DNA from: Candidatus Uhrbacteria bacterium
GTDB lineage: Bacteria; Patescibacteriota; Patescibacteriia; UBA9934; GWF2-40-263
Direction: 5' to 3'
Assembly (NCBI GenBank): GCA_016188425.1
Contig: JACPHX010000009.1
Span: 3,582 to 67,581, forward strand
Length of the DNA: 64,000 bases
Shown here piece by piece: positions 2,017-46,308 of this stretch. A model generated the notes under the pieces. It searched no databases. It was not told the DNA's origin and saw only the letters and a list, made by a program, of their open reading frames with translations. Position 1 is the stretch's first letter, and the number at the start of each line of letters is the position of its first letter. The translations under genes and the position numbers were made by a program.

Positions 2017-2054
2017 GTAAAAAAACCACCGAGAGAAATCTCGGTGGTTTTTTT
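2017..2054. terminator. Bidirectional intrinsic terminator (ends the minus-strand Complex-I-like operon)
   Basis: Perfect 9-bp stem ccaccgaga/tctcggtgg (2026-2034 / 2039-2047) with loop gaaa, flanked by A8 on the left and T7 on the right. It sits just downstream of the NuoD-like gene stop at 2098. Confidence 0.7.
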
Positions 2055-2097: not shown

Positions 2098-3663
2098 CTA
2101 CATATCTGTCCCCGAGTACGACAAATTGAGCGACTTATTGCACAGCGGGAAATCTGGGACGATGTTCCCTGGACCAATCTCCCCGAAGAGCGCCCAGTTG
2201 CAGAATGAGGGGTCGCGTGGGAAACAGCGGTCGATTTTCCCGTCTTTGAGGCGGACGGCCACGAGAACTTCGCCACGCCAGGATTCGACGGCGCCTAGGC
2301 CGGAACCGTTTTGGGCGAGGCAGGGCACCAGGACGCCACCACTCCCCTTCTCTGTGAGCAATCGACGGACGATGTCCATGGAGGTCTTGATCTCCTCGAT
2401 GCGCATCGTAAAGCGCGCGTGGACGTCTCCAGCGGTTTGGGTGATGATTTGTGGAACCAAATCAGGCATCGATCGGAACGCGGCGTATGGATGGTCGCGG
2501 CGGACGTCGATGTCTACGCCAGAAGCGCGAGCGGGGACGCCCAAAGCGCCGTAAGCGATGGCGGCTGCCTTTGAAAGAACCCCTGTCGTTTCCAGACGTT
2601 CAAGGAATGCATCGGAGGACATCGCAAGAGATAGGACGGATTGCATCTCTTCCGTGGCTTCCTTAACCACCGTCAATATTTGCTTCTTTTCCTCTTCCGA
2701 GAGTATTCGTTTTGCGCCTCCTGGAAGGATTTGCCCCCGCCAGTAGCGATTGCCAAACAAATCCATCGAAAGTCTCATCAAACGCTCCTTGATACGGAAT
2801 CCGCTGGCGGCCACGTACGAAAATCCCGTTCCCATCCCCCCCATGTTCGCGAGGTCGTGGATGTGCATCGTCAGGCGTTCAAGCTCGACGAGCAGAGTAC
2901 GCAACAACTGCGCTGGTTTTGGGACTTCACATCCTGCAGCGGCCTCGACGGCCTCGCAGAACGCCAAAGCGTTCGCGGCTGCCATATCCCCGCTCAACCG
3001 TTCTATAAATGGCAGCGCCTCCATAGGCGTCTTCCCTTCCAACAGTTTCTCAACGCCCTTATGCGTGAAAAACAGCTTGCCTTCCAAAGTAATGATCCGT
3101 TCGCCAGCGACATTGAAACGGAAATGCCCAGGCTCGATGATACCCGCATGAATGGGTCCGACCGGAATTTCATAGATACCTTCCCCCTCCACGTGATGCA
3201 TGGGATAGGGAACATCTGCGTGGTCGAGCTTGGTATTCCAAGCGAATCCTTTGCGTAGCGGGTAGGTTCCCTCGGGCACATTCTCGTGATGAACCAGCCG
3301 GCGCGGATCCGGGTGGCCGACGGCTTTGAGGCCGAACATGTCTTGCATGTAGCGCTCATACCAGTGCGCGGCCATGACGGTCGGCGTCAGGGATGGATAC
3401 TCGGGCTTGGAAAATGGCACGGTGGTCGAGACGACAAGCCAGCCATGGCTCGCGACATGGGAAAAGACGGCGTGCATGCCGAAATCGGAGGCAGGCGATT
3501 CTTGCGTCGCATACAAGAGCGAGAGCGGAAGATGGAACTCCGATACCAAACGGGTCGCGAGCGGAGCAAGTTGCTCGGCGGTGACGGTGGCACGCGTCAG
3601 CTGTGGCGTCTTGGCCGTTGATTTTACACCGACGGCCGCGAGGATATGTTCGATCGTCATCAT
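2098..3663 (-). CDS. Fused NuoC-NuoD / hydrogenase large-subunit homologue lacking the [NiFe]-binding cysteines (EhrL-like)
   Basis: The NuoC-like N-terminus (MMTIEHILAAVG...) is fused to a NuoD/HycE-like domain. The N-terminal RxCGxC motif is replaced by RLSGDM, and the C-terminal DPCxxC by DPSFCNW. The start is taken at ATG 3663 (MMTIEH), which overlaps the upstream gene's stop. The ORF-track start at 3789 would overlap the neighbouring gene. Confidence 0.7.
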   Translation of the reverse strand: MMTIEHILAAVGVKSTAKTPQLTRATVTAEQLAPLATRLVSEFHLPLSLLYATQESPASDFGMHAVFSHVASHGWLVVSTTVPFSKPEYPSLTPTVMAAHWYERYMQDMFGLKAVGHPDPRRLVHHENVPEGTYPLRKGFAWNTKLDHADVPYPMHHVEGEGIYEIPVGPIHAGIIEPGHFRFNVAGERIITLEGKLFFTHKGVEKLLEGKTPMEALPFIERLSGDMAAANALAFCEAVEAAAGCEVPKPAQLLRTLLVELERLTMHIHDLANMGGMGTGFSYVAASGFRIKERLMRLSMDLFGNRYWRGQILPGGAKRILSEEEKKQILTVVKEATEEMQSVLSLAMSSDAFLERLETTGVLSKAAAIAYGALGVPARASGVDIDVRRDHPYAAFRSMPDLVPQIITQTAGDVHARFTMRIEEIKTSMDIVRRLLTEKGSGGVLVPCLAQNGSGLGAVESWRGEVLVAVRLKDGKIDRCFPRDPSFCNWALFGEIGPGNIVPDFPLCNKSLNLSYSGTDM

Positions 3664-5174
3664 ACGGTGGAAGTAATGAGCTTGGCGACTCTTGAAAGAA
3701 CCTGGAATCCTTCGGCGGTGAAGAACCAATAGCCCAGTGCCACAAGCAGCACCACATGAACAGCCATCACTCCGTGCGTGATGCGCCACCCTTCAGGATG
3801 TGCGGCTTCACGGCTTGGTTCGTGTGATTCTGTCCCAAGCATCGTTGGATCAAACAGCATCGCAAAGGTCGCGCGCATCATCCCCACAAAGGCGAGAACC
3901 AACAGGAGCATGAAAATGAAGGTTATTGGTTTATTGAGGTTGATACCAATGGCGACGAGGAAATATTCGCTTGCAAATAGCGGGGACAAAGGGACGGCCA
4001 GGAGGGCAAGCATCAAGGCGAGGAACAAACCGGCCGTGCGTGTGTCCGTGCGCATGAGGCGCGGGAGCAGGTCGATCTTGGTCGTCTTGTAGCGCAACAG
4101 CCATTCCCCTGCCCCAAAGAAAAGGCCGGACTTGGCAAGGGTGTGTCCCGCCATGTGCATCAGCATCGGCACGACGCCAATGGGGCCCAGGCCCACACAG
4201 ATTGCCATGAGGCCCATGTGCTCCACGCTCGAGTACGCAAGCAGGCGCTTGTAATTGCGAAGTCCCAGGAAGATGAATGCAGGCAAGGCGACGGAGAGAA
4301 GGCCAAAGACGAGAAAGAAACGCTCGGTCCACCAAGTCTGGTTTAATGAAAAATCAACCAAATCCTTGAAACGGAGTATCGTCACGAAGGCACAGTTGAG
4401 GAGCGTCCCCGAGAGGAATGCGGAAATTGGGGACGGTGTTTTGCTGTGCGCGTCCGGGAGCCAGGTATGCATTGGGACGAACCCGACTTTTGTCCCGATC
4501 CCGATAAAAAGAAAGACGAACGCCCAGCGCATCAGGTCTGGAGAGAGACTTCCAGCTGAAGCGCGGAGTGCCGCCAGATTGAATGCCTCTTGCGGCGAGA
4601 GGCCGGCCTGGGTCGCCGCGAAGCCAACCATGAGGACGCCGATCAGCCCCAAAGCAATGCCTGTCGAACAAAGCAGGACATACTTCCATGCCGCTTCGAC
4701 GCCCCCCTCTTTTCGATAAAAGGCGACGAGCAAAGTTGTCGACAAGGTTGTTGCCTCAAGCGCAAACCACAACACACCCACATGGTTCGCGACCGCGGCG
4801 AGCAACATCGAGAGGACGAACAAATGCCCCATGCCGTAGTACAAACGGTTTTTCCGCGCATCGACGATCCCTTCGACCTGTTCTTCACCCATGTACCGCA
4901 CGCTCACGAGCATCACGCTCGCGTACAAGACGGAGACCAGGAGCAAGAGGAAGCACGCGAGGGCGTCCAAACGCAGCACCTTGCCTGCAAAAAAGGATGC
5001 CACTTCCCCTTCTTGGAAGAATCCCCCCGTGTATGAGAGCCAACCAACGATCAAAAACGTTGCGACTCCGACGATCGCGGAAACTTGGCGCAATGCTTTG
5101 GATGGCACACCGGGAATGGCGGCCAATACGGCGCCAAGGACGGGAAAAAGGAAGAGAAGCAATTGGATAGGCAT
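3660..5174 (-). CDS. Complex I antiporter-like subunit (NuoM/NuoN / HyfD-F / MrpD family)
   Basis: 504 aa with about 14 TM segments. It carries the characteristic WLPDAHSKTPSPISAFLSGTLLNCA block of the NuoM/N/MrpD family. Confidence 0.85.
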   Translation of the reverse strand: MPIQLLLFLFPVLGAVLAAIPGVPSKALRQVSAIVGVATFLIVGWLSYTGGFFQEGEVASFFAGKVLRLDALACFLLLLVSVLYASVMLVSVRYMGEEQVEGIVDARKNRLYYGMGHLFVLSMLLAAVANHVGVLWFALEATTLSTTLLVAFYRKEGGVEAAWKYVLLCSTGIALGLIGVLMVGFAATQAGLSPQEAFNLAALRASAGSLSPDLMRWAFVFLFIGIGTKVGFVPMHTWLPDAHSKTPSPISAFLSGTLLNCAFVTILRFKDLVDFSLNQTWWTERFFLVFGLLSVALPAFIFLGLRNYKRLLAYSSVEHMGLMAICVGLGPIGVVPMLMHMAGHTLAKSGLFFGAGEWLLRYKTTKIDLLPRLMRTDTRTAGLFLALMLALLAVPLSPLFASEYFLVAIGINLNKPITFIFMLLLVLAFVGMMRATFAMLFDPTMLGTESHEPSREAAHPEGWRITHGVMAVHVVLLVALGYWFFTAEGFQVLSRVAKLITSTV

Positions 5175-5180
5175 AGCATC

Positions 5181-5834
5181 TTAGTCGGTCAATTCGCTCA
5201 AGGCCTTAGTGTCCTCCGTGCCATAGAGGGTTTGGACATGGTGGGAGAGCGTGGCCATCAAGAGGGCGCCAAACATGAGGGCGCCGAATATCCCCGCCTC
5301 CAAGAGCGCCGGCACACCGGTGATCGTGGCGAAGGCAAAGGCAGAAATACCATTCTCAATCGTGAGGAAGCCGATAATCTGGGAGAGGACGTCACGACGG
5401 AAGATTAAAAGAAGCATGCCAACAAAGAAAACCTCTACAGAAAGAAGTATTGCCTGGTTGGAAACCGCGTGTTGGACGAATGGCCAATGGGAAACCGCAG
5501 CTGCCAGCCCAAGCACCATGACTAACGCAAGCAACAAAGATGTGGTTGGTCGAACACTTGTTTGGAGGCGCTCTAGTGCATGGCTCTTGCGCACGGATCG
5601 TGACAGAATCCACGGGACGAAGGCGACCTTCACCAGCACGGTGAGCGCCGCGACCGCCCAAAAATGTATCTCCCCACCTTGCCAAGCTAACACCGCGGCG
5701 TACACCGCCAGCATCAGCGAGGCAAACGCGTACAACCTAAGGATACTTCGTAACCGTAGCGTCACGATGCACATGAGCGAGGCGAGTAGGCAAAGCCCAA
5801 GGGCTATGAACTGGATCGCAACAGGAGAAATCAT
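5181..5834 (-). CDS. Small membrane subunit, HyfE/NuoK-like
   Basis: 217 aa and fully hydrophobic. Its size and position between the NuoH-like and NuoM-like genes match hydrogenase-4 component E. Confidence 0.55.
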   Translation of the reverse strand: MISPVAIQFIALGLCLLASLMCIVTLRLRSILRLYAFASLMLAVYAAVLAWQGGEIHFWAVAALTVLVKVAFVPWILSRSVRKSHALERLQTSVRPTTSLLLALVMVLGLAAAVSHWPFVQHAVSNQAILLSVEVFFVGMLLLIFRRDVLSQIIGFLTIENGISAFAFATITGVPALLEAGIFGALMFGALLMATLSHHVQTLYGTEDTKALSELTD

Positions 5835-6766
5835 ACGATCAGAGTGATAATGAGGCCGGCGACGCCAAGGACAAACGCATACGCGAGGTATTCCTGCATC
5901 CGGAAGAACCGCATTTTGGCGATAGAGGTTTCAAGCAAGGCCAACGCTCCCCCAAGAACGATCAGCTTTACCACGAGCGCTCCTACCGCCATCCCCAGGC
6001 CGACGAGTGTATAATCGACACCCGCAAGCAAGTAGGTGCTTGGAAGCAAGAAAGAGCCAATAAGGAGAACAAACACCGTAAGTTTCGTCCAACTTGCAAG
6101 CTCAAGGAGTGCAAGATACGGCCCGGAATATTCTAGAATCATCGCTTCATGAACCATCGTCAGCTCCAGGTGGGTTGCTGGGTTATCGACGGGGTAGCGT
6201 GCATTTTCCGCCAATGACACCAGCACAAGTGCGGCCAGAGAAAGCGCGAGACCCGGGTGCACCACCCATCCCACGACTCCGTTTCCAATCATAAGACTCA
6301 CCATAGCGGTTCCGCTCCCAAGACCGAAACCCGCGAGCGTGACAAAAAAGGCTGGCTCAACGAGAGCCGCAATGGTCATTTCGCGGCTGGCTCCCATGCC
6401 GCCAAAGGCGCTCCCGCTATCGAGGCCACCCAAGACAAGGAAGACGGATCCAAGGGCAAGGATCCCCGAAATGAGGACAAAGTGGGAAAGCGGGCTGATC
6501 CCCTCAAGGGTCAACAACGGCAGGACGGCGGCGGCGAATACTGTTGTTCCGAGAACGACGAATGGGACGGTGCGAAACACCCAAGACGCATTTGTCGAAA
6601 AAACGATCTCCTTCTTCATGAGGGTGAGGAAGGTGTAGTAAGGCAACAGTGGCGAAGCACCGTGGCGTCCTTGCAGACGCGCTTTGCAGAGGCGCACCCA
6701 TCCGATAAGGAAAGGCGCGACCAGGATGACGAGGAATGCTTGGATAATGGCAAAGATGATCATCAT
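5831..6766 (-). CDS. NuoH/HycD/HyfC-like membrane subunit
   Basis: Start taken at ATG 6766 (MMIIFAIIQ...), a 4-nt overlap with the upstream gene. Motif GWVRLCKARLQGRHGASPLLPYYTFLTLMKKE is typical of NuoH/HycD. The 5' extension in the ORF track (to 7123) is an R/P-rich read-through into the neighbouring gene and is rejected. Confidence 0.8.
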   Translation of the reverse strand: MMIIFAIIQAFLVILVAPFLIGWVRLCKARLQGRHGASPLLPYYTFLTLMKKEIVFSTNASWVFRTVPFVVLGTTVFAAAVLPLLTLEGISPLSHFVLISGILALGSVFLVLGGLDSGSAFGGMGASREMTIAALVEPAFFVTLAGFGLGSGTAMVSLMIGNGVVGWVVHPGLALSLAALVLVSLAENARYPVDNPATHLELTMVHEAMILEYSGPYLALLELASWTKLTVFVLLIGSFLLPSTYLLAGVDYTLVGLGMAVGALVVKLIVLGGALALLETSIAKMRFFRMQEYLAYAFVLGVAGLIITLIV

Positions 6767-8760
6767 AGGGCGAGTATCAGGCTCACGATGAGGGCGAGGA
6801 ACAAGAGGAACATGTAGAACTGAACGGAACCCGTTTGCAGGCGGCGTGCCTGCTTGCTGATCCAGAAGACCAATTTTTCCATTGGCGCGTAGCCGTATTC
6901 GACCCAAATGGAACGAACTTGGAGCGAGTAGGTGCGGCGTGCCATCCAGGGATTGGTGCTGACCATCGGCGTCGCCACGATCTCTTTGCGGATACGTAAG
7001 AGGGAACGGAAAAAGAAACGGATCGGGCCCGAGAACGCGGTGGCGGTGTATTCCATCCCCGGCGTAATCGGCTGGCCGCAATCCCATTGGTGGTAGGCGC
7101 GCTCGCGACGGACATCGCTCCAAAGGCGGCGCAACGCGTAGCAGAAGAGGATGGCTGCCAGGAGGGCGAGACCGACGATGAGCGGCGAAGAAGCGTTGGT
7201 ATCGGCACCCGCAAGAGGGGGGAAGAAATAGTTACCGCTTTGGACGAATTGCACTGTCTCCAAGCCAAAGACCATCCGCACGATGAGCGGGGCGAACAAT
7301 CCCATGAGAACCAGGAGCAATGCAGGCACCGCCATCGTAAACCGGTAGATCCCCCCTGCCGGCGTGGCTGCCTCTGCTTCTTTGCTTCGAGGAGCCCCGA
7401 GCATAGAAATACCGAAAAGCCGCACCATCGCAAAGATCGCCAGGCCTCCAACACACACCATGATGATCGCGATCAATAAGAGCACGATGCTTCCAGGCAT
7501 TCCATCAAGAATGGCCTGCCATATACTTGAAAGGAACATCCATTCGCCCCAGAAAGTTCCAAAAGGAGGGAGTGCGGCCGCGGAGAGACAGAGCACAAGG
7601 AAGAAGGCCGCAAATACCGGCATGCGTTTTGCAAGACCGCCCATTGCCTCCAACGAATGCGAATGAGTACGGGTGATAATGGTTCCCGCAGACAAGAACA
7701 ACCCTGCTTTGAACAAACCATGTGCCCACACATGGATAACGAGCGCCAGCAAGGAACCAATCGCCAAGGCCTGGTTACCGCCATACATTCCCAAGAAAAA
7801 AACCCCAGCCATCGTGAAAAGCAGCCCCATATTTTCTACGCTGCTCATAGCAAGGACGCGCTTAATATCCCGCTCAAGAAGCGCATAAAGAACGCCATAG
7901 AGCGCAGAAAGGAGGCCGAATCCAACCACCACATACGCGACCCAGCTTGGAAGGAATGGGCCAATGACGAATCCAAACCGGAGAAACCCATACAGAGCGA
8001 CTTTGAGCATCACGCCAGACATCAGCGCAGAAATGTGGCTCGGGGCCTGCGGATGTGCTTCTGGAAGCCAGGCATGAAACGGAACCAGGCCGGCCTTGGA
8101 ACCAAAACCAAAGAAAAATAATCCAAATGCGAGCCCTAACATCGGAACAGGTAAATCCGCAGCCGCGGAAAGATTAATAAAATCGATGGACAATGACCCA
8201 TCCCCTATCAAGAGCAATCCTCCTAAAATGGCCGCCCCTGAAATCTGCGTCATGGTCAGATAAAACAATGCCGCTTTGATTGAGGCCCGACTACACTCGG
8301 CCATGACAAGAAACGCCGAAGAAAGGGACATCAGTTCCCAAAAAAAGAAAAAAGAAATTGAGGTTTGTGCCAACAAAACCCCCTGCATACCCAAGACGAA
8401 CAAAGCGGTCCCCGCGAGCAAGGTAGGAAGATGGTATTTTTCCCGATAATCTTCGAGATAACGAAGCCCGAATATACCGCACAAGGCGGAAACCAGGCAC
8501 ACGAGCGTGAAGAATGCGGCGCTTAAACTATCAATCGAGAGGATGGTTGAGAAAACCGCTGGGAAGGAAATAATGCCAAGAAATGGCGTGCCTCCAACCA
8601 GAAGGAACAAGAATCCAGCAAGAGCCCCGACAAGCGTACTCATGATAAATACCATTTGCGCCGCCCACTCCGCCAATCGCGACCGGATCAGAGGAAGAAA
8701 CGCGGATGCAAGAACACCCAAGAGCGACAGGACGAACAGGCGAGGAAGGATTTCAATCAT
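6763..8760 (-). CDS. NuoL/HyfB/HycC-like antiporter-type membrane subunit
   Basis: 665 aa (HyfB is about 672). Carries the HAWLPEAHPQAPSHISALMSGVMLK antiporter block. Many TM helices. Confidence 0.85.
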   Translation of the reverse strand: MIEILPRLFVLSLLGVLASAFLPLIRSRLAEWAAQMVFIMSTLVGALAGFLFLLVGGTPFLGIISFPAVFSTILSIDSLSAAFFTLVCLVSALCGIFGLRYLEDYREKYHLPTLLAGTALFVLGMQGVLLAQTSISFFFFWELMSLSSAFLVMAECSRASIKAALFYLTMTQISGAAILGGLLLIGDGSLSIDFINLSAAADLPVPMLGLAFGLFFFGFGSKAGLVPFHAWLPEAHPQAPSHISALMSGVMLKVALYGFLRFGFVIGPFLPSWVAYVVVGFGLLSALYGVLYALLERDIKRVLAMSSVENMGLLFTMAGVFFLGMYGGNQALAIGSLLALVIHVWAHGLFKAGLFLSAGTIITRTHSHSLEAMGGLAKRMPVFAAFFLVLCLSAAALPPFGTFWGEWMFLSSIWQAILDGMPGSIVLLLIAIIMVCVGGLAIFAMVRLFGISMLGAPRSKEAEAATPAGGIYRFTMAVPALLLVLMGLFAPLIVRMVFGLETVQFVQSGNYFFPPLAGADTNASSPLIVGLALLAAILFCYALRRLWSDVRRERAYHQWDCGQPITPGMEYTATAFSGPIRFFFRSLLRIRKEIVATPMVSTNPWMARRTYSLQVRSIWVEYGYAPMEKLVFWISKQARRLQTGSVQFYMFLLFLALIVSLILAL

Positions 8761-8808
8761 ATTTGCTTTGCAGAGACGCCCAAATTAGGCGTCTTTACAC
8801 GAAATGCA

Positions 8809-9342
8809 TTAACGTTGTGCGGATTTCAACGCTCGCAGGACTCCACGTAGGATCTCCGTCGGTGTAGGTGGATCCCCAGGGATCTTGATGTGGACTTGGA
8901 TCACATTTTCGACAGCACCGACGACGGCATACGAATCCTTCCAAATGCCACCCGTGCAAGCTCCATCCCCTACCGCGACGACGATGCAGGGCTGTGGCGC
9001 TGCCTCGTACGTCGTTTTGACGGCACGTGCGAGGTTCCGCGTCACAGGACCCGTAACCCACACCATATCGGCATGGCGAGGGGAAGCCACGAAAGAAAGG
9101 CCAAACCGGTCGATATCGTAGTAGGCGTTGTTGAGGGCTGTAAGCTCGATTTCCTCCCCATTGGTCGATCCTCCATCTACCGCGCGTATACGCAAAGAAC
9201 GCCCGCCGTAGAGGGATTTAATCGTCGATTTGAGCTCATGCCCCACCTGTTCCAGTTCGCTATCTTTAGGCAAAAAATCCTTTGTCTCCTGCGTCACCCT
9301 AGGCCCAAAAAACAGTCGCCCCCACAACTTCAAAAGATACAT
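8809..9342 (-). CDS. NuoB / hydrogenase small-subunit homologue lacking the N2-cluster cysteines (EhrS-like)
   Basis: Conserved SPRHADMVWVTGPVTRNL block. GSCNGCExE is replaced by GGSTNGEEIE, and PGCPP by PGDPP. At most one of the four cluster-ligand Cys is retained (in AVGDGACTGG). Confidence 0.7.
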   Translation of the reverse strand: MYLLKLWGRLFFGPRVTQETKDFLPKDSELEQVGHELKSTIKSLYGGRSLRIRAVDGGSTNGEEIELTALNNAYYDIDRFGLSFVASPRHADMVWVTGPVTRNLARAVKTTYEAAPQPCIVVAVGDGACTGGIWKDSYAVVGAVENVIQVHIKIPGDPPTPTEILRGVLRALKSAQR

Positions 9343-9372: not shown

Positions 9373-9400
9373 ATTCTATGCCCGCAGCGATTTTTGGCAA
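9373..9400 (-). promoter_or_regulatory. Sigma70-like promoter for the Complex-I-like operon
   Basis: On the minus strand: TTGCCA (9400-9395), a 16-nt spacer, then TAGAAT (9378-9373), about 30 nt upstream of the NuoB-like ATG at 9342. Phased A-tracts at 9421-9475 lie just upstream (UP-element or curved-DNA-like). Confidence 0.45.
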
Positions 9401-9470: not shown

Positions 9471-9548
9471 GCAAAAAAGTGCCAACGCTCGGCGTTAGCA
9501 GTGGAAACGCGAGTCTGTTGAGCGAAATCGCCAACGCCGAGCGTTGGC
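9471..9548 (-). terminator. atp operon intrinsic terminator (long hairpin plus U-run)
   Basis: 16-bp perfect inverted repeat gccaacgctcggcgtt / aacgccgagcgttggc (9481-9496 / 9533-9548). On the minus-strand RNA it is followed by UUUUUU (9475-9470). Located downstream of atpC. Confidence 0.6.
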
Positions 9549-9705: not shown

Positions 9706-10149
9706 CTACGGCGTACTCCTCGGCACTGAATGTATTGATAAGTGCTTTCTTCTCGCCACCTTGGTCCTTGCCAACTCTCTCTCAAGCGCGGCGGCAGCGG
9801 CCGCGAAACCTACATCGTCGACCTGATGCTTCTCCAAGAGAACCTGCCGTGCGCGTTCCTTCGCCTCCTCGACCCTCACGAGGTCCAGCTCTTCCATCTT
9901 CTCTGCCGTGTCTGCGAGCACCAATGCTTCCCCGCCTTTTTTCACTTCCAAAAATCCCGTGGAGATCGCGAGGTATTCTTCCTTGCCCGCGACCTTGAGC
10001 TTCATCTCCCCTGCCTTGAGCGCCGCCAAAAGTTCGATGTGATTGGGCAGGATCGTAATTTCCCCGCTGCCAGTCATGACGGTCACCGAATCAACGTCCT
10101 GTGAGAGGACGGCGCGTTCGGGGGTGACTATAGATAAATGAAGAGGCAT
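9706..10149 (-). CDS. atpC: F1 ATP synthase epsilon subunit
   Basis: The N-terminal beta-sandwich block LxIVTPERAVxSQDVDSVTVMTGSGEITILPNHIELLAALKAGEMK is typical of epsilon. It sits at the operon end after beta. The C-terminal tail is longer than usual. Confidence 0.85.
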   Translation of the reverse strand: MPLHLSIVTPERAVLSQDVDSVTVMTGSGEITILPNHIELLAALKAGEMKLKVAGKEEYLAISTGFLEVKKGGEALVLADTAEKMEELDLVRVEEAKERARQVLLEKHQVDDVGFAAAAAALERELARTKVARRKHLSIHSVPRSTP

Positions 10150-10152
10150 ATT

Positions 10153-12467
<2,315 letters not shown>

Positions 12468-12469
12468 AG

Positions 12470-13972
12470 CTAAACGCGTGTCTTTTTATAATCCTCAATG
12501 CCCTTCTTGAGCTCGGCCACCGTCTGATCCTTGAGCTCTCGATCCGTTTTGATCGTCTTCATCAGTTTGGAACCGACCGTCGCCATATATTCATGCAACC
12601 CCGCCTCCCATTCCGCTACCTCCTCCACCGGAACATCGTCAACGAGGCCGTTGATGACGGCAAATAAGACGACAACCTGATATTCAAACGGCATCGGGGA
12701 ATACTGGGGCTGTTTGATGATTTCCACGGCGCGGCGACCACGATCGATCTGCTTGCGCGTCGCTTCGTCCATATCCGTCGCAAACTGAGCAAACGCTTCC
12801 AACTCACGGAACTGTGCCAAATCCAGACGCAGCTTCCCTGCCACCTTCTTCATGGCCTTCGTCTGGGCTGCTGAACCTACGCGCGAGACAGACAAACCGA
12901 CGTTGAGTGCAGGACGGATTCCCCGATAGAATAGATCGGTTTCAAGATAAATCTGACCGTCCGTGATCGAGATCACGTTGGTCGGAATGTACGCAGATAC
13001 GTCACCCGCTTGGGTTTCGATGATGGGGAGCGCGGTCAGCGATCCACCACCATTTTCTTCATTGAGGCGAGCGGCACGCTCCAGGAGACGGGAGTGGAGA
13101 TAAAAAACATCTCCAGGATACGCTTCACGACCTGGCGGGCGGCGGAGCAGCAAGGAAAGCTCACGATACGCCCAAGCATGCTTGGAGAGGTCGTCATACA
13201 CCACGAGCACATCCTCACCCTTGCCCATGAAGTATTCGCCAATGGCGCAACCGGCATACGGGGACAAAAAGACGAGCGACGCAGGATCGGAAGCACCCGC
13301 AACAACAACGGTCGTGTATTCCATGGCTCCGGCCTTTTCAAGACGCGCGACAATATTGGCGACCTTTGATTCCTTCTGGCCGATCGCGACGTAAATACAC
13401 TTCACCCCCTCCCCTTTCTGATTCAAAATCGTATCAACGGCAATCGCCGTCTTTCCCACCTGGCGGTCGCCAATGATAAGCTCACGCTGTCCGCGGCCGA
13501 TCGGAATCATGGCATCGATGGCTTTGATACCCGTGTGGAGCGGCACCCCGACGCTTTTGCGAGTCATAACGCCTGGCGCCACCTTCTCAATCGGCATATG
13601 GGTCTTCACCTTGATGGACCCTTTGCCATCGATGGGCTCTCCCAGCGGGTTGATGACGCGACCGATCACTTCGTCAGAAACCGGAATAGAAAGAATACGG
13701 CCGGTTGATGTGACTGTATCCCCCTCCTTAATGCCAGAGGACTCGCCCAAAAGCATCGCTCCGACCGTCTCTTCTTCAAGGTTAAGCGCGACGCCGATGA
13801 CCCCGTTTGAAAATGAGAGCATTTCCGCGGCTTGGCAATCGGAAAGGCCAGTCAAGCGAGCGATGCCGTCACCGACAGAGATTACTTTTCCCACGTTTTT
13901 TGTCTCCGCCGTGGGAGCAAAATTCGCCAGCTGGCTTCGGAGCGCTTCGATTATGTCGTTTTTCTTCGTCAT
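12470..13972 (-). CDS. atpA: F1 ATP synthase alpha subunit
   Basis: GDRQVGKT P-loop, 500 aa, canonical alpha blocks. Confidence 0.97.
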
Positions 13973-13974
13973 AG

Positions 13975-14361
13975 CTAGTCTTTCACGAAATGTGAGTGCA
14001 ATTGTTGAAGCCGTCCCCGGATCGAGCCGTCGAGTACTTGGTCATCTTTCTCAATGATCGCTCCCCCGATGAGGGCTGTATCGACCACGACCCTCAAATC
14101 TGCTCCCGCGATAACCGACTCAATGTCCTTTTCTGTTTCTTTTGAAAGCGGATGCGCGGAGGTGATGCGGACATTGGCAAGCCCATAGCGTTCCATCCAA
14201 ACCCGGTCGATCGCGCGTTCCAGGTCGGGCAGATGTGCGCGCTTTCCTTGCTGCACCAACCGTTCGATGACGACCTTGGCGAGTTCCACTTGGTCTTTGG
14301 GAGCTGCCTGTGCCATCGCGTCCACGCAAGCTTCGGCTATACGCTGCCAGTGCTGTTTCAT
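13975..14361 (-). CDS. atpH: F1 ATP synthase delta (OSCP) subunit, unusually short
   Basis: 128 aa. An in-frame TGA lies 5 codons upstream of the ATG, so no longer form is possible. The start overlaps the atpF stop by 4 nt. The C-terminal region (…[25 protein letters not shown]) matches the delta C-terminal domain. Confidence 0.75.
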
Positions 14362-14927
14362 ACGAGTTTCATTTTCTCAATGACATCCTTCGCCAAACTC
14401 TCCGACTTTTTAGCCGTCATAGAATCGGAGAGCACAACACCGGCTGCCTCCACGACGACCGCGGCCAATTCCTTACGGGCAGATTGCACCATGCTCACAC
14501 GTTCGCGCGCGATCTCCTTCTTGCCAGATTCGACCACCTGACGCACTTGCTCCTTGGTCTCCTGAAGTACTCGTTCCCGTTCCACCTCCAGCTGGTCGCG
14601 GGTTTGGCGCATGAGTTCGGCCGCCTCCTTCTTGGCGCCGATGATCATGGAATCGCTGTGTTCCTTTGCTTGTTCGAGGGACTTTTTCGCCAGTTCCGCG
14701 TTTTGAACACCAGATTGGATCATGCCAGACCGTTCATCGAGCTTGGCGAGGACAGGCTTATAAATCCATTTCCAGACCACCAAAAGCACCAGCAGGAAGT
14801 TGAACCCCTGTGCCAGGAGGTAGCCGCCATTTATCCCGAGAGCCGAAAGGCCACCGGAGGGTGGCTCTGGTGACGACTCGACTGCCGTGGTGGTTGCGTA
14901 TGTCTGCGTGGTTTTCGCGGTCGCCAT
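14358..14927 (-). CDS. atpF: Fo ATP synthase b subunit
   Basis: 189 aa with a single N-terminal TM helix (FNFLLVLLVVWKWIY) followed by a long charged coiled coil. Confidence 0.85.
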   Translation of the reverse strand: MATAKTTQTYATTTAVESSPEPPSGGLSALGINGGYLLAQGFNFLLVLLVVWKWIYKPVLAKLDERSGMIQSGVQNAELAKKSLEQAKEHSDSMIIGAKKEAAELMRQTRDQLEVERERVLQETKEQVRQVVESGKKEIARERVSMVQSARKELAAVVVEAAGVVLSDSMTAKKSESLAKDVIEKMKLV

Positions 14928-14958
14928 AGATCGTCGCGGTGAGAACTCCTTTCACTAC

Positions 14959-15312
<354 letters not shown>

Positions 15313-16119
15313 TTAATGAGCCGCCGCATGTTCCTCCTCTCCCCCATGGGCGGTCGTCATGGTCGAGAGGAAGACGACAGTGAGCATGGCAAAGACGGTG
15401 GCCTGAATGAGGCCGACCATCATTTCCAAGAACAGGAATGGCAGGGGAATAAGGTAGGCAACCATGCTATAGATGACCGTAAGCAACACTTCACCGGCAA
15501 AAACATTTCCGAACAACCGGAGCGCCAATGATGCTGTTTTTGCGACTTCACCAATCGTTTCGAGCAATCCCACAAAGAACTCGGACAAAGCAACCACAAG
15601 AGCCATCGGGCCTTTCTTGACGGAAAGAACGATACCACGGAAGTTAAAAAACTTGCTGAAATGATTGAAGAATCCGATCGAGAGCAAACCGAAAATATGC
15701 ATCGAAACCACGGAAATGATGGCAATCGCGAGCGTAAAGTTCAAATCGCTCGTCGCGGGGCGAAACAAGGGGATCAACTCCCGCTCGCCTTGATGCATGG
15801 CCCAGACGCCGATCGATCCGACTCCTGGGAGCAAGCCGATCCAGTTTGAAAGGAGGATAAAGAAAAAAAGCGAGGCAACCAGCGGGAAAAACCGCCGCGC
15901 CTTCGTTTTGTTCCCCGTAATCTTTTCCATTTCCACGAGCAAAAAATCTACCAGCGTATCAACGACATGGGCAAAACCTTGCGGGGTGACCGCGGCACGG
16001 CGTCGGATGAACAATCCGGTGATAACAAAGACTACGAGCACGATCCACCCCGTAAAAATGCTATTTGTGACCGCAAAAGAGCCAAGATGGAAAATCGGTT
16101 CTGCCGCAATAGAAATCAT
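15313..16119 (-). CDS. atpB: Fo ATP synthase a subunit
   Basis: 268 aa with the conserved essential-Arg block LALRLFGNVFAGE and 5-6 TM helices. Confidence 0.95.
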   Translation of the reverse strand: MISIAAEPIFHLGSFAVTNSIFTGWIVLVVFVITGLFIRRRAAVTPQGFAHVVDTLVDFLLVEMEKITGNKTKARRFFPLVASLFFFILLSNWIGLLPGVGSIGVWAMHQGERELIPLFRPATSDLNFTLAIAIISVVSMHIFGLLSIGFFNHFSKFFNFRGIVLSVKKGPMALVVALSEFFVGLLETIGEVAKTASLALRLFGNVFAGEVLLTVIYSMVAYLIPLPFLFLEMMVGLIQATVFAMLTVVFLSTMTTAHGGEEEHAAAH

Positions 16120-16376
16120 ACCATGTCTTTAAATTCTTCCCCGAGCGCGCGTGTTTTCCGACGAACGGCGACCATGCTCCCCAAGAAGGAAGCGGCCACA
16201 CAGAGGATCAGGAACCAATGCCAGGTATCGAAACGTTTATCGAGCCAAGAACCAAGAAAAGCCCCAAGGACCGCGGGCGGCGCGATGAGTCCCGTTAGTT
16301 GAAAAAACGTCTTAGCCGCAAAGCGGTAGTAATTTCCAAGGCCGTCTGGCTTCTTTTGTTGGATTTTTTCATCCAC
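16116..16376 (-). CDS. AtpZ/AtpI-like small membrane protein leading the atp operon
   Basis: 86 aa with two TM helices, overlapping the atpB start by 4 nt. Its size and position fit the AtpZ (ATPase_gene1) family. The start is GTG at 16376. Confidence 0.55.
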   Translation of the reverse strand: MDEKIQQKKPDGLGNYYRFAAKTFFQLTGLIAPPAVLGAFLGSWLDKRFDTWHWFLILCVAASFLGSMVAVRRKTRALGEEFKDMV

Positions 16377-16468
16377 AGGTGGCCACAGTGTACCTTACTA
16401 GGAGATTTATTCAAGGATTTCAAAAATACCACTTGATTTCCAAAGCAAATTAACCACACAATGCTTCC

Positions 16469-17248
16469 ATGACGACGCCCGATACGTTCTTTCCACCCAT
16501 GAGACTATTCTGGACTTCCTTGAAACGGAACGCGAAAACAGTTTGGGTCCCCGTTGATGCAAAACTGTGGGCCATCGCAAGGGCGTTCGATCGCCTTGGC
16601 GTGAGCGGGAACCAAGTCACAGGGTACCGGGGCCTAGGCATTTTTCCTGGGGTGTATCTTTTCTCTACGAACCATTGGATTCTCGCGACGATCATTTTGG
16701 TTCCTTGCTTCCTAGGAGACAACACCGACGGGCTCGTCGCTCGTCTCCAAGAAGCGCGCCAAGCGGGGCCACTTCCCTTGCTGACAGAACTTCGAATGAC
16801 GTGGCGGGAGATATGGAAGTACAAAGGGTGCAGCCAATTCGGCATGGCCTTCGACCCATTTGTCGACAAAGTCCTCGTCCAGGGCGTGCTACAAATCACA
16901 GGGGGTGGCATTGTGCATCCTGGCTTGATGGTCGGCTCTATTTGTATAGCGCTCCTCTCGACGTGGCTGCGGATCATCATGTCGGAAATCAAGAAGAGTA
17001 CCGTTCTTTCAGGGAAGCCGGAACCCGTCTTTAGCATCGGCGCCAACACATGGGGCAAGGCCAAGATGGTGACAGAGGTCGGCTCGCTCATCGACATCGT
17101 CTTCCCCACCTTCATGATGGACCACAACCAGTACACGCGCGCAAACGCGAACGTGACTCTTCTCGCCTCTTGCATCCTGGGCCTCCTCTCCGTCCTGGGC
17201 CAAGCGCGAGGGCTGGTGCGGTATCTCGGAACCAGGCCCACGACGTAA
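16469..17248 (+). CDS. CDP-alcohol phosphatidyltransferase family protein
   Basis: Family signature D-x2-DG-x2-AR…G-x3-D-x3-D is present as GDNTDGLVARLQ…GMAFDPFVDKV. Multi-TM protein. The mirror ORF on the minus strand (16450-17241) is R-rich junk. Confidence 0.7.
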   Translation: MTTPDTFFPPMRLFWTSLKRNAKTVWVPVDAKLWAIARAFDRLGVSGNQVTGYRGLGIFPGVYLFSTNHWILATIILVPCFLGDNTDGLVARLQEARQAGPLPLLTELRMTWREIWKYKGCSQFGMAFDPFVDKVLVQGVLQITGGGIVHPGLMVGSICIALLSTWLRIIMSEIKKSTVLSGKPEPVFSIGANTWGKAKMVTEVGSLIDIVFPTFMMDHNQYTRANANVTLLASCILGLLSVLGQARGLVRYLGTRPTT

Positions 17249-17421
17249 TTCCCTTCTATCGAGAGATGGAGGGAAGTTTTTATAAGGGGAAGGATGATAG
17301 GGGATAATCTCTGTCATCCTTCCCCCCTAAACCACGCCGTTCACAAATTGAAAAGGCATGGTGATCCTGTTTGACACGCCACCTTTTCCGCGGTACGTTT
17401 TCCTTAGAAAGGAGGTGGCTA

Positions 17422-18324: not shown

Positions 18325-18521
18325 CCCCTCTTCGACTGGCTATCGATGTGGGGTTTATTTTTTTGCTCCCAAACCTTACAGATTGTCATTTTGTCATGCT
18401 TCCCGTCAGAGCATTTCACGCCTCATCCCGCCGCGTCTGTTTTGCTTCCAGTACCGAGACGGCTATGTGATCACCATAGATTGGGCGTCTGTACGGGAAA
18501 CGGGTATCATGATGCCAACCT

Positions 18522-19154: not shown

Positions 19155-19244
19155 GCGGCACCATTGCCCTTCCGCCTGTTTTGTCGTACCATTTCGCCAC
19201 ATTCATCCTTCCAGCGACTTTTGTTCCCCCCTTCCACCCTCCTT

Positions 19245-43156: not shown

Positions 43157-43160
43157 ATCT

Positions 43161-43367: not shown

Positions 43368-43376
43368 TCCAATTGT

Positions 43377-46262: not shown

Positions 46263-46277
46263 CGGCAACAGATAAAT

Positions 46278-46308
46278 CCGCCAGGCATTCATGCCTGGCG
46301 GGTTTTTA
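46278..46308 (+). terminator. Intrinsic terminator after copA
   Basis: 11-bp perfect stem ccgccaggcat/atgcctggcgg with a 2-nt loop, followed by GTTTTT. Confidence 0.75.

What the first reader, a model, noticed from the sequence alone, without database searches (positions are those of the whole stretch)
2098..9342. Cofactor-less Complex-I / energy-converting-hydrogenase-like six-gene module (Ehr-type)
- **Module:** six co-directional, translationally coupled genes (4-nt ATGA overlaps). They encode a NuoB-like subunit, a NuoL/HyfB-like subunit, a NuoH/HycD-like subunit, a HyfE-like subunit, a NuoM/N-like subunit and a fused NuoC-NuoD/HycE-like subunit. This is the minimal energy-converting hydrogenase / formate-hydrogenlyase-type architecture.
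- **Lost cofactor sites:** the two peripheral subunits have lost nearly all cofactor ligands. In the NuoB homologue GSCNGCE becomes GGSTNGEE and PGCPP becomes PGDPP. In the large subunit RxCGxC becomes RLSGDM and DPCxxC becomes DPSFCNW.
- **Missing subunits:** there is no ferredoxin-like (HycF/NuoI) subunit and no electron-input module in the cluster.
- **Implication:** the complex appears to have no redox centre near the membrane arm. That resembles the described-but-functionally-unknown Ehr class and the redox-independent uses of the Complex-I scaffold, for example the cyanobacterial CO2-hydrating NDH-1 variants. What it couples to ion translocation here is an open question.
Basis: partly seen in the sequence, partly recalled or inferred. 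Interest (0 to 1): 0.8.

Follow-up and report, generated by a model that had tools for sequence, protein, structure and literature searches.

The report
Cofactor-free Complex-I-like ion pump (Ehr)
A tiny uncultured groundwater bacterium (Candidatus Uhrbacteria) carries an intact six-gene relative of membrane hydrogenases and respiratory Complex I that has lost every metal-binding site yet kept its ion-pumping parts. In most close relatives it sits between the ATP synthase genes and a carbonic anhydrase gene, which suggests it links ion gradients to CO2/bicarbonate chemistry rather than to electron transfer.

Summary
**Observation:** real. Six minus-strand genes (9342 to 2098) encode HyfI/NuoB-, HyfB-, HyfC/NuoH-, HyfE-, HyfF- and HycE/NuoCD-like proteins.

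**Cofactor sites:**
- All four [4Fe-4S] ligands (now T60/E63/G127/D157) and all four NiFe ligands (now S224/M227/S515/G518) are gone.
It is NLSYSG at the very end, not DPSFCNW.
- No ferredoxin-type gene lies in the 64-kb window or in 80 related loci.

**Identity:** it belongs to the CPR clade of Ehr complexes. That clade's large subunit was already reported as Cys-less (Jaffe 2020).

**Added here:**
- Sister Ehr lineages keep the small-subunit cluster, so this clade is a further-reduced variant.
- The replacement residues and the pump residues are nearly invariant, so the complex is under selection.
- Gene order is invariant in 67/67 complete loci.
- In the window's clade, 38/47 loci lie directly downstream of the ATP synthase operon.
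- In the same clade, 37/45 loci have an adjacent carbonic-anhydrase-like gene, drawn from four different families.

**Best reading (about 0.4):** a redox-independent, ion-gradient-coupled CO2/HCO3- converter.

**Main rival:** an Mrp-like antiporter.

**Caveat:** this window itself has no CA gene.

The parts
8809..9342 (-). S: NuoB/HyfI/HycG-like small subunit (177 aa) without [4Fe-4S] ligands. The four ligand columns are T60, E63, G127 and D157; D126 is invariant.
   Evidence: PF01058 at 82.7 bits. Alignment to MbhJ and HycG. Column counts in 67 orthologues.
6763..8760 (-). L: HyfB/NuoL-like antiporter-like subunit (665 aa). E142, K222, K253, K351 and E406 are conserved.
   Evidence: PF00361 at 175 bits and NF005086 HyfB at 486 bits. 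Conservation at 95% or more in 69 sequences.
5831..6766 (-). H: NuoH/HyfC/HycD-like subunit (311 aa). The ENARYPVDNPATHLELTMVHEAM loop is nearly invariant. The start codon overlaps the L stop codon (ATGA).
   Evidence: PF00146 at 91 bits. Conservation. Junction sequence.
5181..5834 (-). E: HyfE-like subunit with a NuoK-like C-terminal half (217 aa). E160 and E179 are conserved. ATGA overlap with H.
   Evidence: NF008556 HyfE at E = 2.4e-22 and PF00420 at E = 7e-5, both below their curated cut-offs. Conservation.
3660..5174 (-). F: HyfF/NuoN-like antiporter-like subunit (504 aa). E140 aligns to E. coli NuoN E133 and K229 to NuoN K217. K348 is conserved. The TM8 Lys is replaced by a conserved N260.
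   Evidence: PF00361 at 144 bits and NF005044 HyfF at 335 bits. Alignment to chain 3rko_N. Conservation.
2098..3663 (-). CD: fused NuoC-NuoD/HycE-like large subunit (521 aa) without NiFe ligands. RLSGDM occupies residues 222-227 and NLSYSG residues 513-518. ATGA overlap with F.
   Evidence: PF00329 plus PF00346. HycE chain 7z0s_E at E = 3e-63 with residue alignment. Column counts in 80 orthologues.
9373..9400 (-). Promoter-like site TTGCCA-16-TAGAAT, about 30 nt upstream of the S start codon.
   Evidence: Consensus scan, 10 of 12 matches. This is a pattern match only.
9481..9548 (-). Two similar hairpins (9548-9530 and 9499-9481) in the atpC-S spacer. The second is followed by CTTTTTTG and is terminator-like. 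Together they separate the atp operon from the module.
8774..8794 (-). 7-bp hairpin AGACGCC-TAATTTG-GGCGTCT in the 48-nt gap between S and L.
   Evidence: Read directly from the sequence. Function not tested.
2019..2054 (-). Intrinsic-terminator-like hairpin after the CD stop codon: A7, CCACCGAGA, TTTC, TCTCGGTGG, T7.
   Evidence: Read directly from the sequence.
9706..16119 (-). Context: the F1Fo ATP synthase operon atpB-E-F-H-A-G-D-C lies immediately upstream on the same strand. The c subunit lacks the Na+-binding Gln and Ser/Thr motif.
   Evidence: ORF translations. Pfam annotation of the identical contig L081. c-subunit sequence. Same synteny in 38 of 47 related loci.

Best explanation
**Shown.**
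- The module is a member of the CPR (Patescibacteria) clade of Ehr complexes. It is a six-subunit membrane complex descended from Hyf/formate-hydrogenlyase-type group-4 [NiFe] hydrogenases.
- The Ni-Fe site was lost earlier; that loss is shared with other Ehr lineages.
- In this clade the last [4Fe-4S] cluster of the small subunit is also gone.
- No ferredoxin-like subunit is encoded.
- The complex therefore has no ligands for any of the redox centres of its relatives, so it has no recognisable electron path.
- The ion-translocating residues of both antiporter-like subunits, of the NuoH-like subunit and of the NuoK-like subunit are conserved.
- The residues that replaced the cysteines are also conserved: E63, D126 and D157 in S, and S224, D226, S515 and G518 in CD.
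- It is therefore a working, selected machine.

**Inferred mechanism.**
- The complex moves H+ across the membrane without redox chemistry.
- H+ is preferred because the neighbouring ATP synthase c-ring has an H+-type binding site.
- This ion flow is coupled to CO2/HCO3- interconversion catalysed by a partner carbonic anhydrase.
- It would thus be a gradient-coupled (vectorial) carbonic-anhydrase system, analogous to DabAB/MpsAB and to the cyanobacterial NDH-1MS.
- The gradient would be supplied or used by the adjacent F1Fo ATPase.

**Caveats.**
- In this particular genome the CA partner is not in the 64-kb window. It must be encoded elsewhere, or be dispensable.
- The interchangeability of four CA families argues for functional coupling. 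It does not require a fixed docking interface.
For: **Identity and cofactor loss.**
- Domain and family matches.
- Residue-level alignments to MbhJ, HycG and HycE.
- Ligand columns in 67 S and 80 CD orthologues carry no usable Cys set.
- No ferredoxin-type motif ORF in the window; in the 80 loci only one antisense ORF inside the CD gene of L080, treated as spurious.
- The CPR Ehr clade is described in PMC7304191.
- Sister Ehr operons share the RxSGD and N(L/Q)SYSG large-subunit motifs but keep GSCNGC, GDC and PGCPP in the small subunit (L128, L139, L142, L143, L170).
- Of the 150 best 50%-identity representatives of the small subunit, 89 have all four Cys. About 10 show the window's x-E-G-D pattern.

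**Evidence that the complex is functional.**
- Pump residues are at least 95% conserved.
- F aligns to E. coli NuoN at E133 and K217.
- Gene order S-L-H-E-F-CD holds in 67 of 67 complete loci.

**Coupling partners.**
- The ATP synthase operon lies directly upstream in 38 of 47 main-clade loci.
- CA-like genes lie directly adjacent in 37 of 45 main-clade loci.
- The CA-like genes fall into four families that replace one another at the same two positions.
  - CsoSCA-like: PF20686 above its cut-off. C-x-D-x-R, His and Cys are invariant, and the His and Cys align to CsoSCA His242 and Cys253.
  - PF20393.
  - Gamma-CA: CcmM chain 3kwc at E = 4e-36, with the three His and RADEG conserved in the aligned member L003. 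The three His are also conserved across the five family members.
- Independent contigs show the order atpC, beta-CA-fold gene, then S-L-H-E-F-CD.
- CsoSCA-like genes also lie next to the Cys-retaining Ehr type in four other loci.
Against: - The window has no CA-like gene in 64 kb, nor in a further 5.5 kb on one side.
- Eight of 45 main-clade loci lack an adjacent CA gene. So do all 15 basal-clade loci, which come from Acidobacteriota and from Saccharibacteria- and Kaiserbacteria-like genomes. The core function therefore cannot strictly require an adjacent CA.
- From the CA side the link is not exclusive. Most CsoSCA-like relatives at 40-45% identity sit in unrelated contexts.
- Four unrelated CA families are unlikely all to dock on one site. 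A direct 'vectorial' mechanism is therefore less certain than a looser metabolic or pH link.
- No physiological need for bicarbonate pumping in these fermentative organisms has been shown.
- A terminator-like hairpin and a promoter-like site separate the module from the atp operon in this window.
- No structure, activity or expression data exist.
Confidence: 0.4

Rival explanations
1. Mrp-like secondary antiporter or ion-gradient converter. The two antiporter-like subunits together with the NuoH- and NuoK-like subunits exchange Na+ (or K+) for H+. The cofactor-less peripheral arm serves only as a structural cap or regulator. The carbonic anhydrase neighbours reflect pH and bicarbonate buffering, not a coupled reaction.
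For: - Pump residues are intact.
- No redox ligands are present.
- The module is self-contained, with no CA gene in the window, in 8 of 45 main-clade loci, or in any of the 15 basal loci.
- NCBIfam matches of L and F to MrpA and MrpD are significant.
- The ATP synthase is adjacent, which fits management of the gradient made by ATP hydrolysis.
Against: - It does not explain why the former active-site pocket is so conserved. E63, D126 and D157 in S, and S224, D226, S515 and G518 in CD, are near-invariant.
- It does not explain why a large soluble arm is retained at all.
- CA adjacency in 37 of 45 loci, with non-orthologous replacement of CA families, is stronger than expected for a buffering role.
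- The ATP synthase c subunit lacks the Na+ motif.
Confidence: 0.28
2. A non-redox reaction other than CO2 hydration takes place at the remodelled S/CD pocket and drives, or is driven by, ion translocation. Candidates are a decarboxylation, a hydrolysis or metal-ion binding. The pocket is now lined by three carboxylates plus Ser, Asp and His.
For: - The replacement residues are conserved in a way that suggests a new polar or metal-binding site.
- The peripheral arm is retained in every lineage.
- A second lineage has a different Cys-less pattern (D-A-A-D, locus L169), which shows the pocket evolves under constraint.
Against: - No candidate substrate-handling gene is conserved next to the module apart from the CA genes.
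- H231 is N in the window and five relatives, so at least that residue is dispensable.
- There is no precedent for such a reaction in this scaffold.
Confidence: 0.17
3. Still a redox enzyme. Electrons from an unlinked partner, or a non-Cys-ligated or organic cofactor, reach an acceptor at the S/CD interface, as is generally assumed for Ehr and Mbx-type complexes.
For: - The general literature on Ehr assumes a redox partner (PMC6349859).
- Sister Ehr lineages keep the N2-type cluster.
Against: - All eight metal-ligand Cys are absent in 67 S and 80 CD orthologues.
- The remaining Cys, C119 and C129, are not invariant.
- There are no ferredoxin-motif ORFs; the single match is an antisense ORF inside the CD gene of L080, treated as spurious.
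- The quinone-binding Tyr of NuoD aligns to an invariant Gly.
- No electron-input genes were found among the window genes I checked.
Confidence: 0.08
4. Decaying relic of a hydrogenase operon with no present function.
For: Loss of all cofactor ligands would be expected during decay. One locus (L097) keeps only a 68-aa CD remnant next to the CA gene.
Against: - All six ORFs are intact and in the same order in 67 of 67 complete loci spanning several phyla, at 51-70% identity.
- Pump residues and replacement residues are at least 90-95% conserved.
- Genes are translationally coupled, and the unit has its own promoter-like and terminator-like sites.
Confidence: 0.02

Closest known systems
[quoted passage not shown] 2013), including the CPR clade (Jaffe et al. 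2020, PMC7304191)
   Same: - Descent from group-4 hydrogenases.
- Large subunit without the two CxxC NiFe motifs.
- The substituted motifs RxSGD and N(L/Q)SYSG are shared with other Ehr operons.
- NuoB-, NuoH- and antiporter-like partners.
- Function unknown.
   Different: - This clade has also lost all four ligands of the small-subunit [4Fe-4S] cluster. Sister Ehr operons (L128, L139, L142, L143, L170) keep them.
- The usual assumption of a redox partner therefore cannot apply.
- Synteny with ATP synthase and CA genes is not mentioned in the papers I could read.
E. coli hydrogenase-4 (Hyf) and formate hydrogenlyase FHL-1 (PDB 7z0s)
   Same: The six proteins are homologues of HyfI/HycG, HyfB/HycC, HyfC/HycD, HyfE, HyfF and HyfG/HycE. 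These are the best NCBIfam and PDB matches.
   Different: - No HyfA, HyfH or HycF ferredoxins.
- No HyfD.
- No formate dehydrogenase.
- No NiFe site.
- No Fe-S ligands.
- S is encoded first instead of last.
DabAB / MpsAB inorganic-carbon pumps (PMC13144422; bioRxiv 10.1101/476713)
   Same: Redox-independent pairing of a beta-CA-fold protein with a PF00361 antiporter-like membrane subunit. Proposed PMF-driven vectorial CO2 hydration.
   Different: - DAB is a two-gene system whose CA (PF10070) is a dedicated subunit.
- Here there are six subunits, including a complete cofactor-less peripheral arm.
- Here the CA genes come from four other families, and none is in this window.
Cyanobacterial NDH-1MS / NDH-1MS' (CupA/CupB; PMC6981117)
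   Same: A Complex-I-type scaffold used to hydrate CO2.
   Different: NDH-1MS is driven by ferredoxin-to-plastoquinone electron transfer through intact Fe-S clusters, and it uses Cup proteins. This module has no redox centres and no Cup homologue.
Mrp (multiple resistance and pH) antiporters
   Same: Redox-independent multisubunit cation/proton machines built from MrpA/MrpD antiporter-like and NuoK-like subunits.
   Different: Mrp has no NuoB-, NuoD- or NuoH-like subunits. MrpE, MrpF and MrpG are absent here.
Gamma-carbonic-anhydrase domain of plant and protist mitochondrial Complex I (for example PDB 7a23, 6x89)
   Same: A gamma-CA physically associated with a Complex-I-type membrane arm. The gamma-CA next to the module in some relatives matches these chains weakly.
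   Different: There the CA is an accessory domain of a fully redox-active Complex I. Here the link is genomic only, and the scaffold is redox-dead.

Membership tests
Ehr complexes | Large subunit homologous to group-4 [NiFe]-hydrogenase large subunit / NuoD | tested here: met
   PF00346, PF00329 and PF00374 matches. HycE chain 7z0s_E at E = 3e-63 and MbhL at E = 7e-39.
Ehr complexes | Both CxxC NiFe-binding motifs absent from the large subunit | tested here: met
   RLSGDM replaces RxCGxC and NLSYSG replaces DPCxxC. The same holds in 78-80 of 80 orthologues.
Ehr complexes | Encoded together with NuoB-, NuoH- and NuoL/M/N-like membrane partners | tested here: met
   Six-gene operon. The order is conserved in 67 of 67 complete loci.
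Ehr complexes | Falls in the Ehr clade of a group-4 / NuoD phylogeny | tested here: inconclusive
   No tree with reference sequences was built. Indirect support: substituted motifs are shared with other Ehr operons, at 34-39% identity. The orthologues at 51-65% identity are from Uhrbacteria and Moranbacteria, the lineages whose Ehr clade is reported in PMC7304191.
Functional group-4 [NiFe] hydrogenase (Hyf/FHL/Mbh/Ech) | Four Cys ligands of the NiFe centre | tested here: not met
Functional group-4 [NiFe] hydrogenase (Hyf/FHL/Mbh/Ech) | Proximal [4Fe-4S] cluster in the small subunit, plus a HycF/NuoI-type 2x[4Fe-4S] subunit | tested here: not met
   Ligand columns are T/E/G/D. No CxxCxxCxxxC[PAG] ORF in the window; in the 80 loci only one antisense ORF inside the CD gene of L080 matches.
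Respiratory Complex I (NDH-1) | Cluster N2 ligands in NuoB and the quinone-site Tyr in NuoD | tested here: not met
   N2 ligands are absent. The NuoD 'DY' position aligns to S224-G225, seen in the alignment to A. aeolicus NuoCD2.
Respiratory Complex I (NDH-1) | Full set NuoA, H, J, K, L, M, N plus NuoI (with or without NuoEFG) | tested here: not met
   Only six genes are present. No NuoA-, NuoI-, NuoJ- or NuoEFG-like genes lie in the cluster.
Vectorial carbonic anhydrase systems (DabAB/MpsAB, NDH-1MS) | A CA-like or Cup subunit encoded with the antiporter-like subunit | tested here: not met
   In this window there is no match to any of the four CA-like family HMMs, even at E = 50, and no beta-CA motif pair. 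In orthologous loci of the same clade the feature is met in 37 of 45.
Vectorial carbonic anhydrase systems (DabAB/MpsAB, NDH-1MS) | Zn-ligand and catalytic residues intact in the CA partner | tested here: met
   Tested for the partners found in related loci. CsoSCA-like: C, D, R, H and C are invariant. Beta-CA-fold family: C39, D41, H114 and C117 are invariant. Gamma-CA: three His plus RADEG in the aligned member L003; the three His are conserved across the five members.
Vectorial carbonic anhydrase systems (DabAB/MpsAB, NDH-1MS) | Physical complex and gradient-dependent CO2 hydration | not testable with these tools
   Needs biochemistry, or multimer modelling, which was not available here.
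Mrp antiporter | Seven-subunit MrpA-G set, including MrpE, MrpF and MrpG | tested here: not met
   Only MrpA/MrpD-like and MrpC/NuoK-like homology is present. No further small membrane genes lie in the operon.

The most novel reading that the evidence does not exclude
The Parcubacteria/Uhrbacteria/Moranbacteria Ehr clade would be the first complete hydrogenase/Complex-I-type machine that works with no redox centre at all. It would be a proton-gradient-coupled CO2/HCO3- converter that teams up with interchangeable soluble carbonic anhydrases and the F1Fo ATPase. It could run in either of two directions. In one, ATP-generated PMF is spent to trap CO2 as bicarbonate. In the bolder version, CO2/HCO3- disequilibrium is used to move protons and support ATP synthesis in organisms that have no respiratory chain.
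Probability: 0.3. Interest if true: 0.85.

Novelty: new variant of a known kind. Interest (0 to 1): 0.6.

Why it matters
**An old open question.** Ehr complexes have had no assigned function since they were defined in 2013. They occur in many uncultured lineages, in nitrifiers and in mycobacteria-like contexts.

**What this clade offers.**
- It is the extreme case, with no recognisable binding site left for any of the redox cofactors of its relatives. It therefore isolates the question of what a Complex-I scaffold can couple to ion translocation besides electron transfer.
- The conserved three-way neighbourhood of ATP synthase, carbonic anhydrase and Ehr gives a concrete hypothesis that can be tested experimentally.
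- It bears on how CPR bacteria manage membrane energetics. These bacteria lack respiratory chains.

**Practical points.**
- Public annotations of these genes are misleading. They read 'NADH-quinone oxidoreductase subunit C' or 'Ni,Fe-hydrogenase III large subunit'.
- A previously unrecognised beta-carbonic-anhydrase-fold family with no Pfam model came out of the analysis.

Tried and rejected
- **Flanks of the Acidobacteriota and basal-clade loci.** They hold only unrelated genes such as DUF2911, glycosyltransferase and regulators. There is no electron-input module, no CA and no ATP synthase.
- **Reciprocal test anchored on the CsoSCA-like CA.**
  - An 8-sequence alignment worked.
  - It showed that most distant CA relatives are not next to Ehr. 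I therefore rejected the idea that this CA family is a dedicated Ehr subunit.
- **Search of the window for any CA.** I used the four family HMMs with all filters off, plus beta-CA motifs. Nothing was found.
- **Extending the contig.**
  - One side gained 5.5 kb (peroxiredoxin, superoxide dismutase, DUF3179, methylase) and no CA.
  - The gene at the other end is not on record.
- **Correlation of the H231N substitution in CD with absence of a CA neighbour.** There is none.
- **The original Ehr paper (Marreiros 2013).** It is not in the searchable library. Its definition was taken from citing papers.
- **Literature searches for a published link between CPR Ehr and CA or ATP synthase.** None was found.
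- **Not done.** No formal phylogeny with reference hydrogenases was built, and no multimer model was possible.

Full report
**1. What is in the sequence**

Six genes lie head to tail on the minus strand.

| Gene | Coordinates | Length |
|---|---|---|
| S | 9342-8809 | 177 aa |
| L | 8760-6763 | 665 aa |
| H | 6766-5831 | 311 aa |
| E | 5834-5181 | 217 aa |
| F | 5174-3660 | 504 aa |
| CD | 3663-2098 | 521 aa |

- Three junctions (L/H, H/E, F/CD) are ATGA overlaps. S-L is a 48-nt gap with a 7-bp hairpin, and E-F is a 6-nt gap.
- Pfam assigns PF01058 to S, PF00361 to L and F, PF00146 to H, and PF00329+PF00346 to CD.
- NCBIfam's best models are HyfB for L, HyfE for E and HyfF for F.
- The best solved relatives are P. 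furiosus MbhJ and E. coli HycG for S, and E. coli HycE (E = 3e-63) for CD.
- The module is therefore a trimmed Hyf/formate-hydrogenlyase-type group-4 hydrogenase operon with the small subunit moved to the front.

The transcription signals below are pattern matches only.
- A promoter-like site lies at 9400-9373.
- A terminator-like hairpin at 9499-9481 lies in the 363-nt spacer after atpC.
- A strong hairpin followed by T7 lies at about 2047-2019, after CD.
- Together they suggest a separate transcription unit.

**2. Cofactor sites**

*Small subunit*
- The alignment to MbhJ/HycG puts T60 and E63 in place of the CxxC pair and D157 in place of the Cys of PGCPP.
- The alignments to MbhJ and bovine PSST put G127 in place of the third Cys.

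*Large subunit*
- The alignment to HycE puts RLSGDM in place of RVCGIC.
- The extreme C-terminal NLSYSG stands in place of DPCYSC.
Its conclusion is unaffected.

*Quinone site and ferredoxin genes*
- The quinone-site Asp-Tyr of NuoD aligns to S224-G225.
- No ORF with a ferredoxin-type CxxCxxCxxxC motif exists in the 64-kb window. In the 80 related loci the only match is one antisense ORF inside the CD gene of L080, which I treat as spurious.
- None of the window genes I annotated is an electron-input module.

**3. Who carries it**

- The CD protein is 100% identical to an NCBI protein of a Candidatus Uhrbacteria MAG. It sits on a 78,961-bp contig and is annotated 'NADH-quinone oxidoreductase subunit C'.
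- A scan of one genome per species returned 80 loci at 51-65% identity. They are mostly Patescibacteria: Uhr-, Moran-, Falkow-, Peregrini-, Kaiser- and Saccharibacteria. A set of high-GC Acidobacteriota/Vicinamibacterales is also present.
- The literature already describes a monophyletic CPR clade of Ehr large subunits lacking the metal-binding cysteines (PMC7304191).
- That paper says nothing about the small subunit, the gene neighbourhood or the function.
- Ehr are defined as group-4-hydrogenase relatives without NiFe ligands. They are generally assumed to couple some cytoplasmic redox reaction to ion translocation.

**4. Conservation across the family**

*Ligand columns in 67 S and 80 CD orthologues*
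- S, column 60: T54, S6, N5.
- S, column 63: E in 67 of 67.
- S, column 127: G in 67 of 67.
- S, column 157: D60, N5.
- S, D126 is invariant.
- CD: S224 in 78/80, D226 in 79/80, S515 in 79/80, G518 in 80/80.
- No orthologue keeps a usable cysteine set.

*Canonical ion-translocation residues, at least 95% conserved*
- L: E142, K222, K253, K351, E406.
- F: E140, K229, K348, E403.
- H: a near-invariant loop and Glu/Asp set.
- E: E160, E179.
- F E140 and K229 align to E. coli NuoN E133 and K217.
- The TM8 Lys of F is a conserved Asn.

*Interpretation*
- The complex is under purifying selection as an ion-translocating machine.
- Its former active-site pocket is now lined by conserved carboxylates and polar residues.

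**5. This clade is a further-reduced Ehr**

- A second Ehr operon type (order L-H-E-F-CD-S; loci L128, L139, L142, L143) shares the RxSGD and N(L/Q)SYSG substitutions in the large subunit. So does a third type with the S-first order (L170/L171).
- Both types keep GSCNGC, GDC and PGCPP in the small subunit.
- Among the 150 best 50%-identity representatives of the small subunit, 89 have all four Cys. About ten show the window's x-E-G-D pattern. A further set shows other Cys-less patterns such as D-A-A-D.
- One such case, L169, has the same six-gene order in a non-CPR genome.
- The NiFe site was therefore lost first.
- The last Fe-S cluster was lost later, possibly more than once.

**6. Neighbourhood**

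- The order S-L-H-E-F-CD holds in 67 of 67 complete loci.
- A neighbour-joining tree of CD splits the family:
  - a basal group of Acidobacteriota and Saccharibacteria-, Kaiserbacteria- and high-GC-like genomes;
  - a main clade that contains the window.

| Feature | Main clade | Basal group |
|---|---|---|
| ATP synthase operon (atpAGDC) directly upstream, same strand | 38 of 47 | 0 of 15 |
| CA-like gene wedged between atpC and S, or immediately after CD | 37 of 45 | 0 of 15 |

The CA-like genes belong to four families that substitute for one another at the same two positions.
- **(i) CsoSCA-like.**
  - PF20686 scores 30.7 bits against a cut-off of 21.5, and TIGR02701 gives E = 8e-10.
  - C-x-D-x-R, His and Cys are invariant.
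  - The His and Cys align to the positions I recall as CsoSCA His242 and Cys253.
  -.
- **(ii) PF20393 'putative carbonic anhydrase'**.
- **(iii) A gamma-CA.**
  - It is close to the CcmM N-domain and to Cam (3kwc, E = 4e-36).
  - The three His and RADEG are conserved in the aligned member L003.
  - The three His are also conserved across the five family members.
  -.
- **(iv) A family of about 210 aa with no Pfam match.**
  - Its AlphaFold model has pLDDT 85.7.
  - C39, D41, H114 and C117 are invariant.
  -.

Further checks on the CA link:
- Independent metagenome contigs show the order atpC, family (iv), then S-L-H-E-F-CD.
- From the CA side the association is not exclusive. Distant CsoSCA-like relatives mostly sit elsewhere.
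- Four of those relatives flank the Cys-retaining Ehr type, and a few flank other PF00361 genes or ATP synthase operons.

**7. The window itself**

- ATP synthase is immediately upstream, as in most of its clade.
- There is no CA-like gene in the 64 kb, nor in the extra 5.5 kb recovered on one side.
- The window is thus one of the roughly 20% of clade members without an adjacent CA.
- The ATP synthase c subunit has Ile, Ala and Ile where Na+-binding c-rings have Gln, Ser and Thr. The motif is from my own knowledge of the I. tartaricus c-ring.
- The local coupling ion is therefore probably H+.

**8. Mechanism**

*Shown*
- No ligands remain for the NiFe or Fe-S centres of its relatives.
- No ferredoxin-like subunit is encoded.
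- The pump residues are intact.
- The remodelled pocket is conserved.
- The module has clade-wide genomic linkage to ATP synthase and to carbonic anhydrases of unrelated folds.

*Inferred*
- The complex translocates protons without redox chemistry.
- It is functionally coupled to CO2/HCO3- interconversion, in the manner of DabAB/MpsAB or NDH-1MS.
- The F1Fo ATPase would supply or use the gradient.
- Non-orthologous replacement of the CA argues that CA activity, not one particular protein, is what matters.
- That same replacement makes a fixed docking site less likely.

*Rivals*
- The main rival is an Mrp-like antiporter with a structural peripheral arm.
- A different non-redox reaction at the carboxylate pocket cannot be excluded.
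- Cryptic redox chemistry cannot be excluded.
- Decay is excluded by the conservation.

**9. Novelty and score**

- The class (Ehr) and the Cys-less CPR large subunit are known.
- I found three things in no paper I could search:
  - the complete loss of the Fe-S cluster relative to sister Ehr;
  - the conserved replacement residues;
  - the ATP synthase-CA-Ehr neighbourhood.
- I therefore rate it a new variant of a known kind.
- Interest is moderately high. It turns an open question, what Ehr complexes do, into a specific testable one.
- For this particular locus the key partner is not in view, and the mechanism rests on comparative genomics alone.

Noticed in passing
[not shown]
   Followed up: yes
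L128, L139, L142, L143 (metagenome contigs) and L170/L171: Other Ehr operon types have the same RxSGD and N(L/Q)SYSG large-subunit substitutions but an intact four-Cys small subunit. In the first four loci they lie near a CsoSCA-like carbonic anhydrase gene. The CA-Ehr link may therefore extend beyond the cofactor-less clade.
   Followed up: partly
L169:9001-16536: A non-CPR genome with the same S-L-H-E-F-CD order. Its small subunit is Cys-less with a different pattern (D-A-A-D: GSDNAAE, GDAARDGG, PGDPP). This may be an independent loss of the Fe-S cluster.
   Followed up: partly
L097:9043-10450: A CsoSCA-like CA gene is followed directly by a 68-aa remnant of the CD C-terminus, and the rest of the Ehr operon is missing. 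It looks like a recent deletion of the module.
   Followed up: no
L108:8509-10038 and L130:8983-11574: CsoSCA-like CA genes lie directly next to ATP synthase operons with no Ehr module within 9 kb. CA and ATP synthase may therefore be linked independently of Ehr.
   Followed up: partly
L036:2487-4124 and 13086-20045: One Moranbacteria locus has atpB-(E)-F copies immediately upstream of S and a complete atp operon downstream of the module.
   Followed up: no
window 9481-9548 (minus strand): Two near-identical palindromic hairpins lie 30 nt apart in the atpC-S spacer: GCCAACGC-TCG-GCGTTGGC and GCTAACGC-CGA-GCGTTGGC. Only the second is followed by a T-run. A 44-codon ORF (9695-9561) is called here in a public assembly and is probably spurious.
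   Followed up: partly
window 14959-15177 (atpE): The ATP synthase c subunit has Ile, Ala and Ile at the positions of the Na+-binding Gln, Ser and Thr. A proton-coupled c-ring is predicted.
   Followed up: partly
window 26747-34174 and 53230-57972 (minus strand): Two very large ORFs of 2475 and 1580 aa, likely surface proteins. They were not analysed.
   Followed up: no
window 41810-48540: A metal-homeostasis cluster. It holds a DsbD_2/HMA/cupredoxin fusion protein and two P-type ATPases, one of which has HMA domains.
   Followed up: partly
L081:10618-11818 (just beyond the window's left end): Peroxiredoxin (AhpC-TSA) and Fe/Mn superoxide dismutase genes lie next to the leucyl aminopeptidase. 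The organism evidently meets oxygen.
   Followed up: no
L138:2812-7619, L125, L116, L154: In other bacteria, CsoSCA-like CA genes repeatedly neighbour DASS-type Na+:anion symporters (PF00939/PF03600), CBS-domain proteins and sigma-54 activators. This may be a regulated inorganic-carbon or anion uptake locus.
   Followed up: partly
window 2098-3663 (protein P0015 in public databases): Public annotations call this protein and its orthologues 'NADH-quinone oxidoreductase subunit C/F/E' or 'Ni,Fe-hydrogenase III large subunit'. These names imply activities the protein cannot have.
   Followed up: yes
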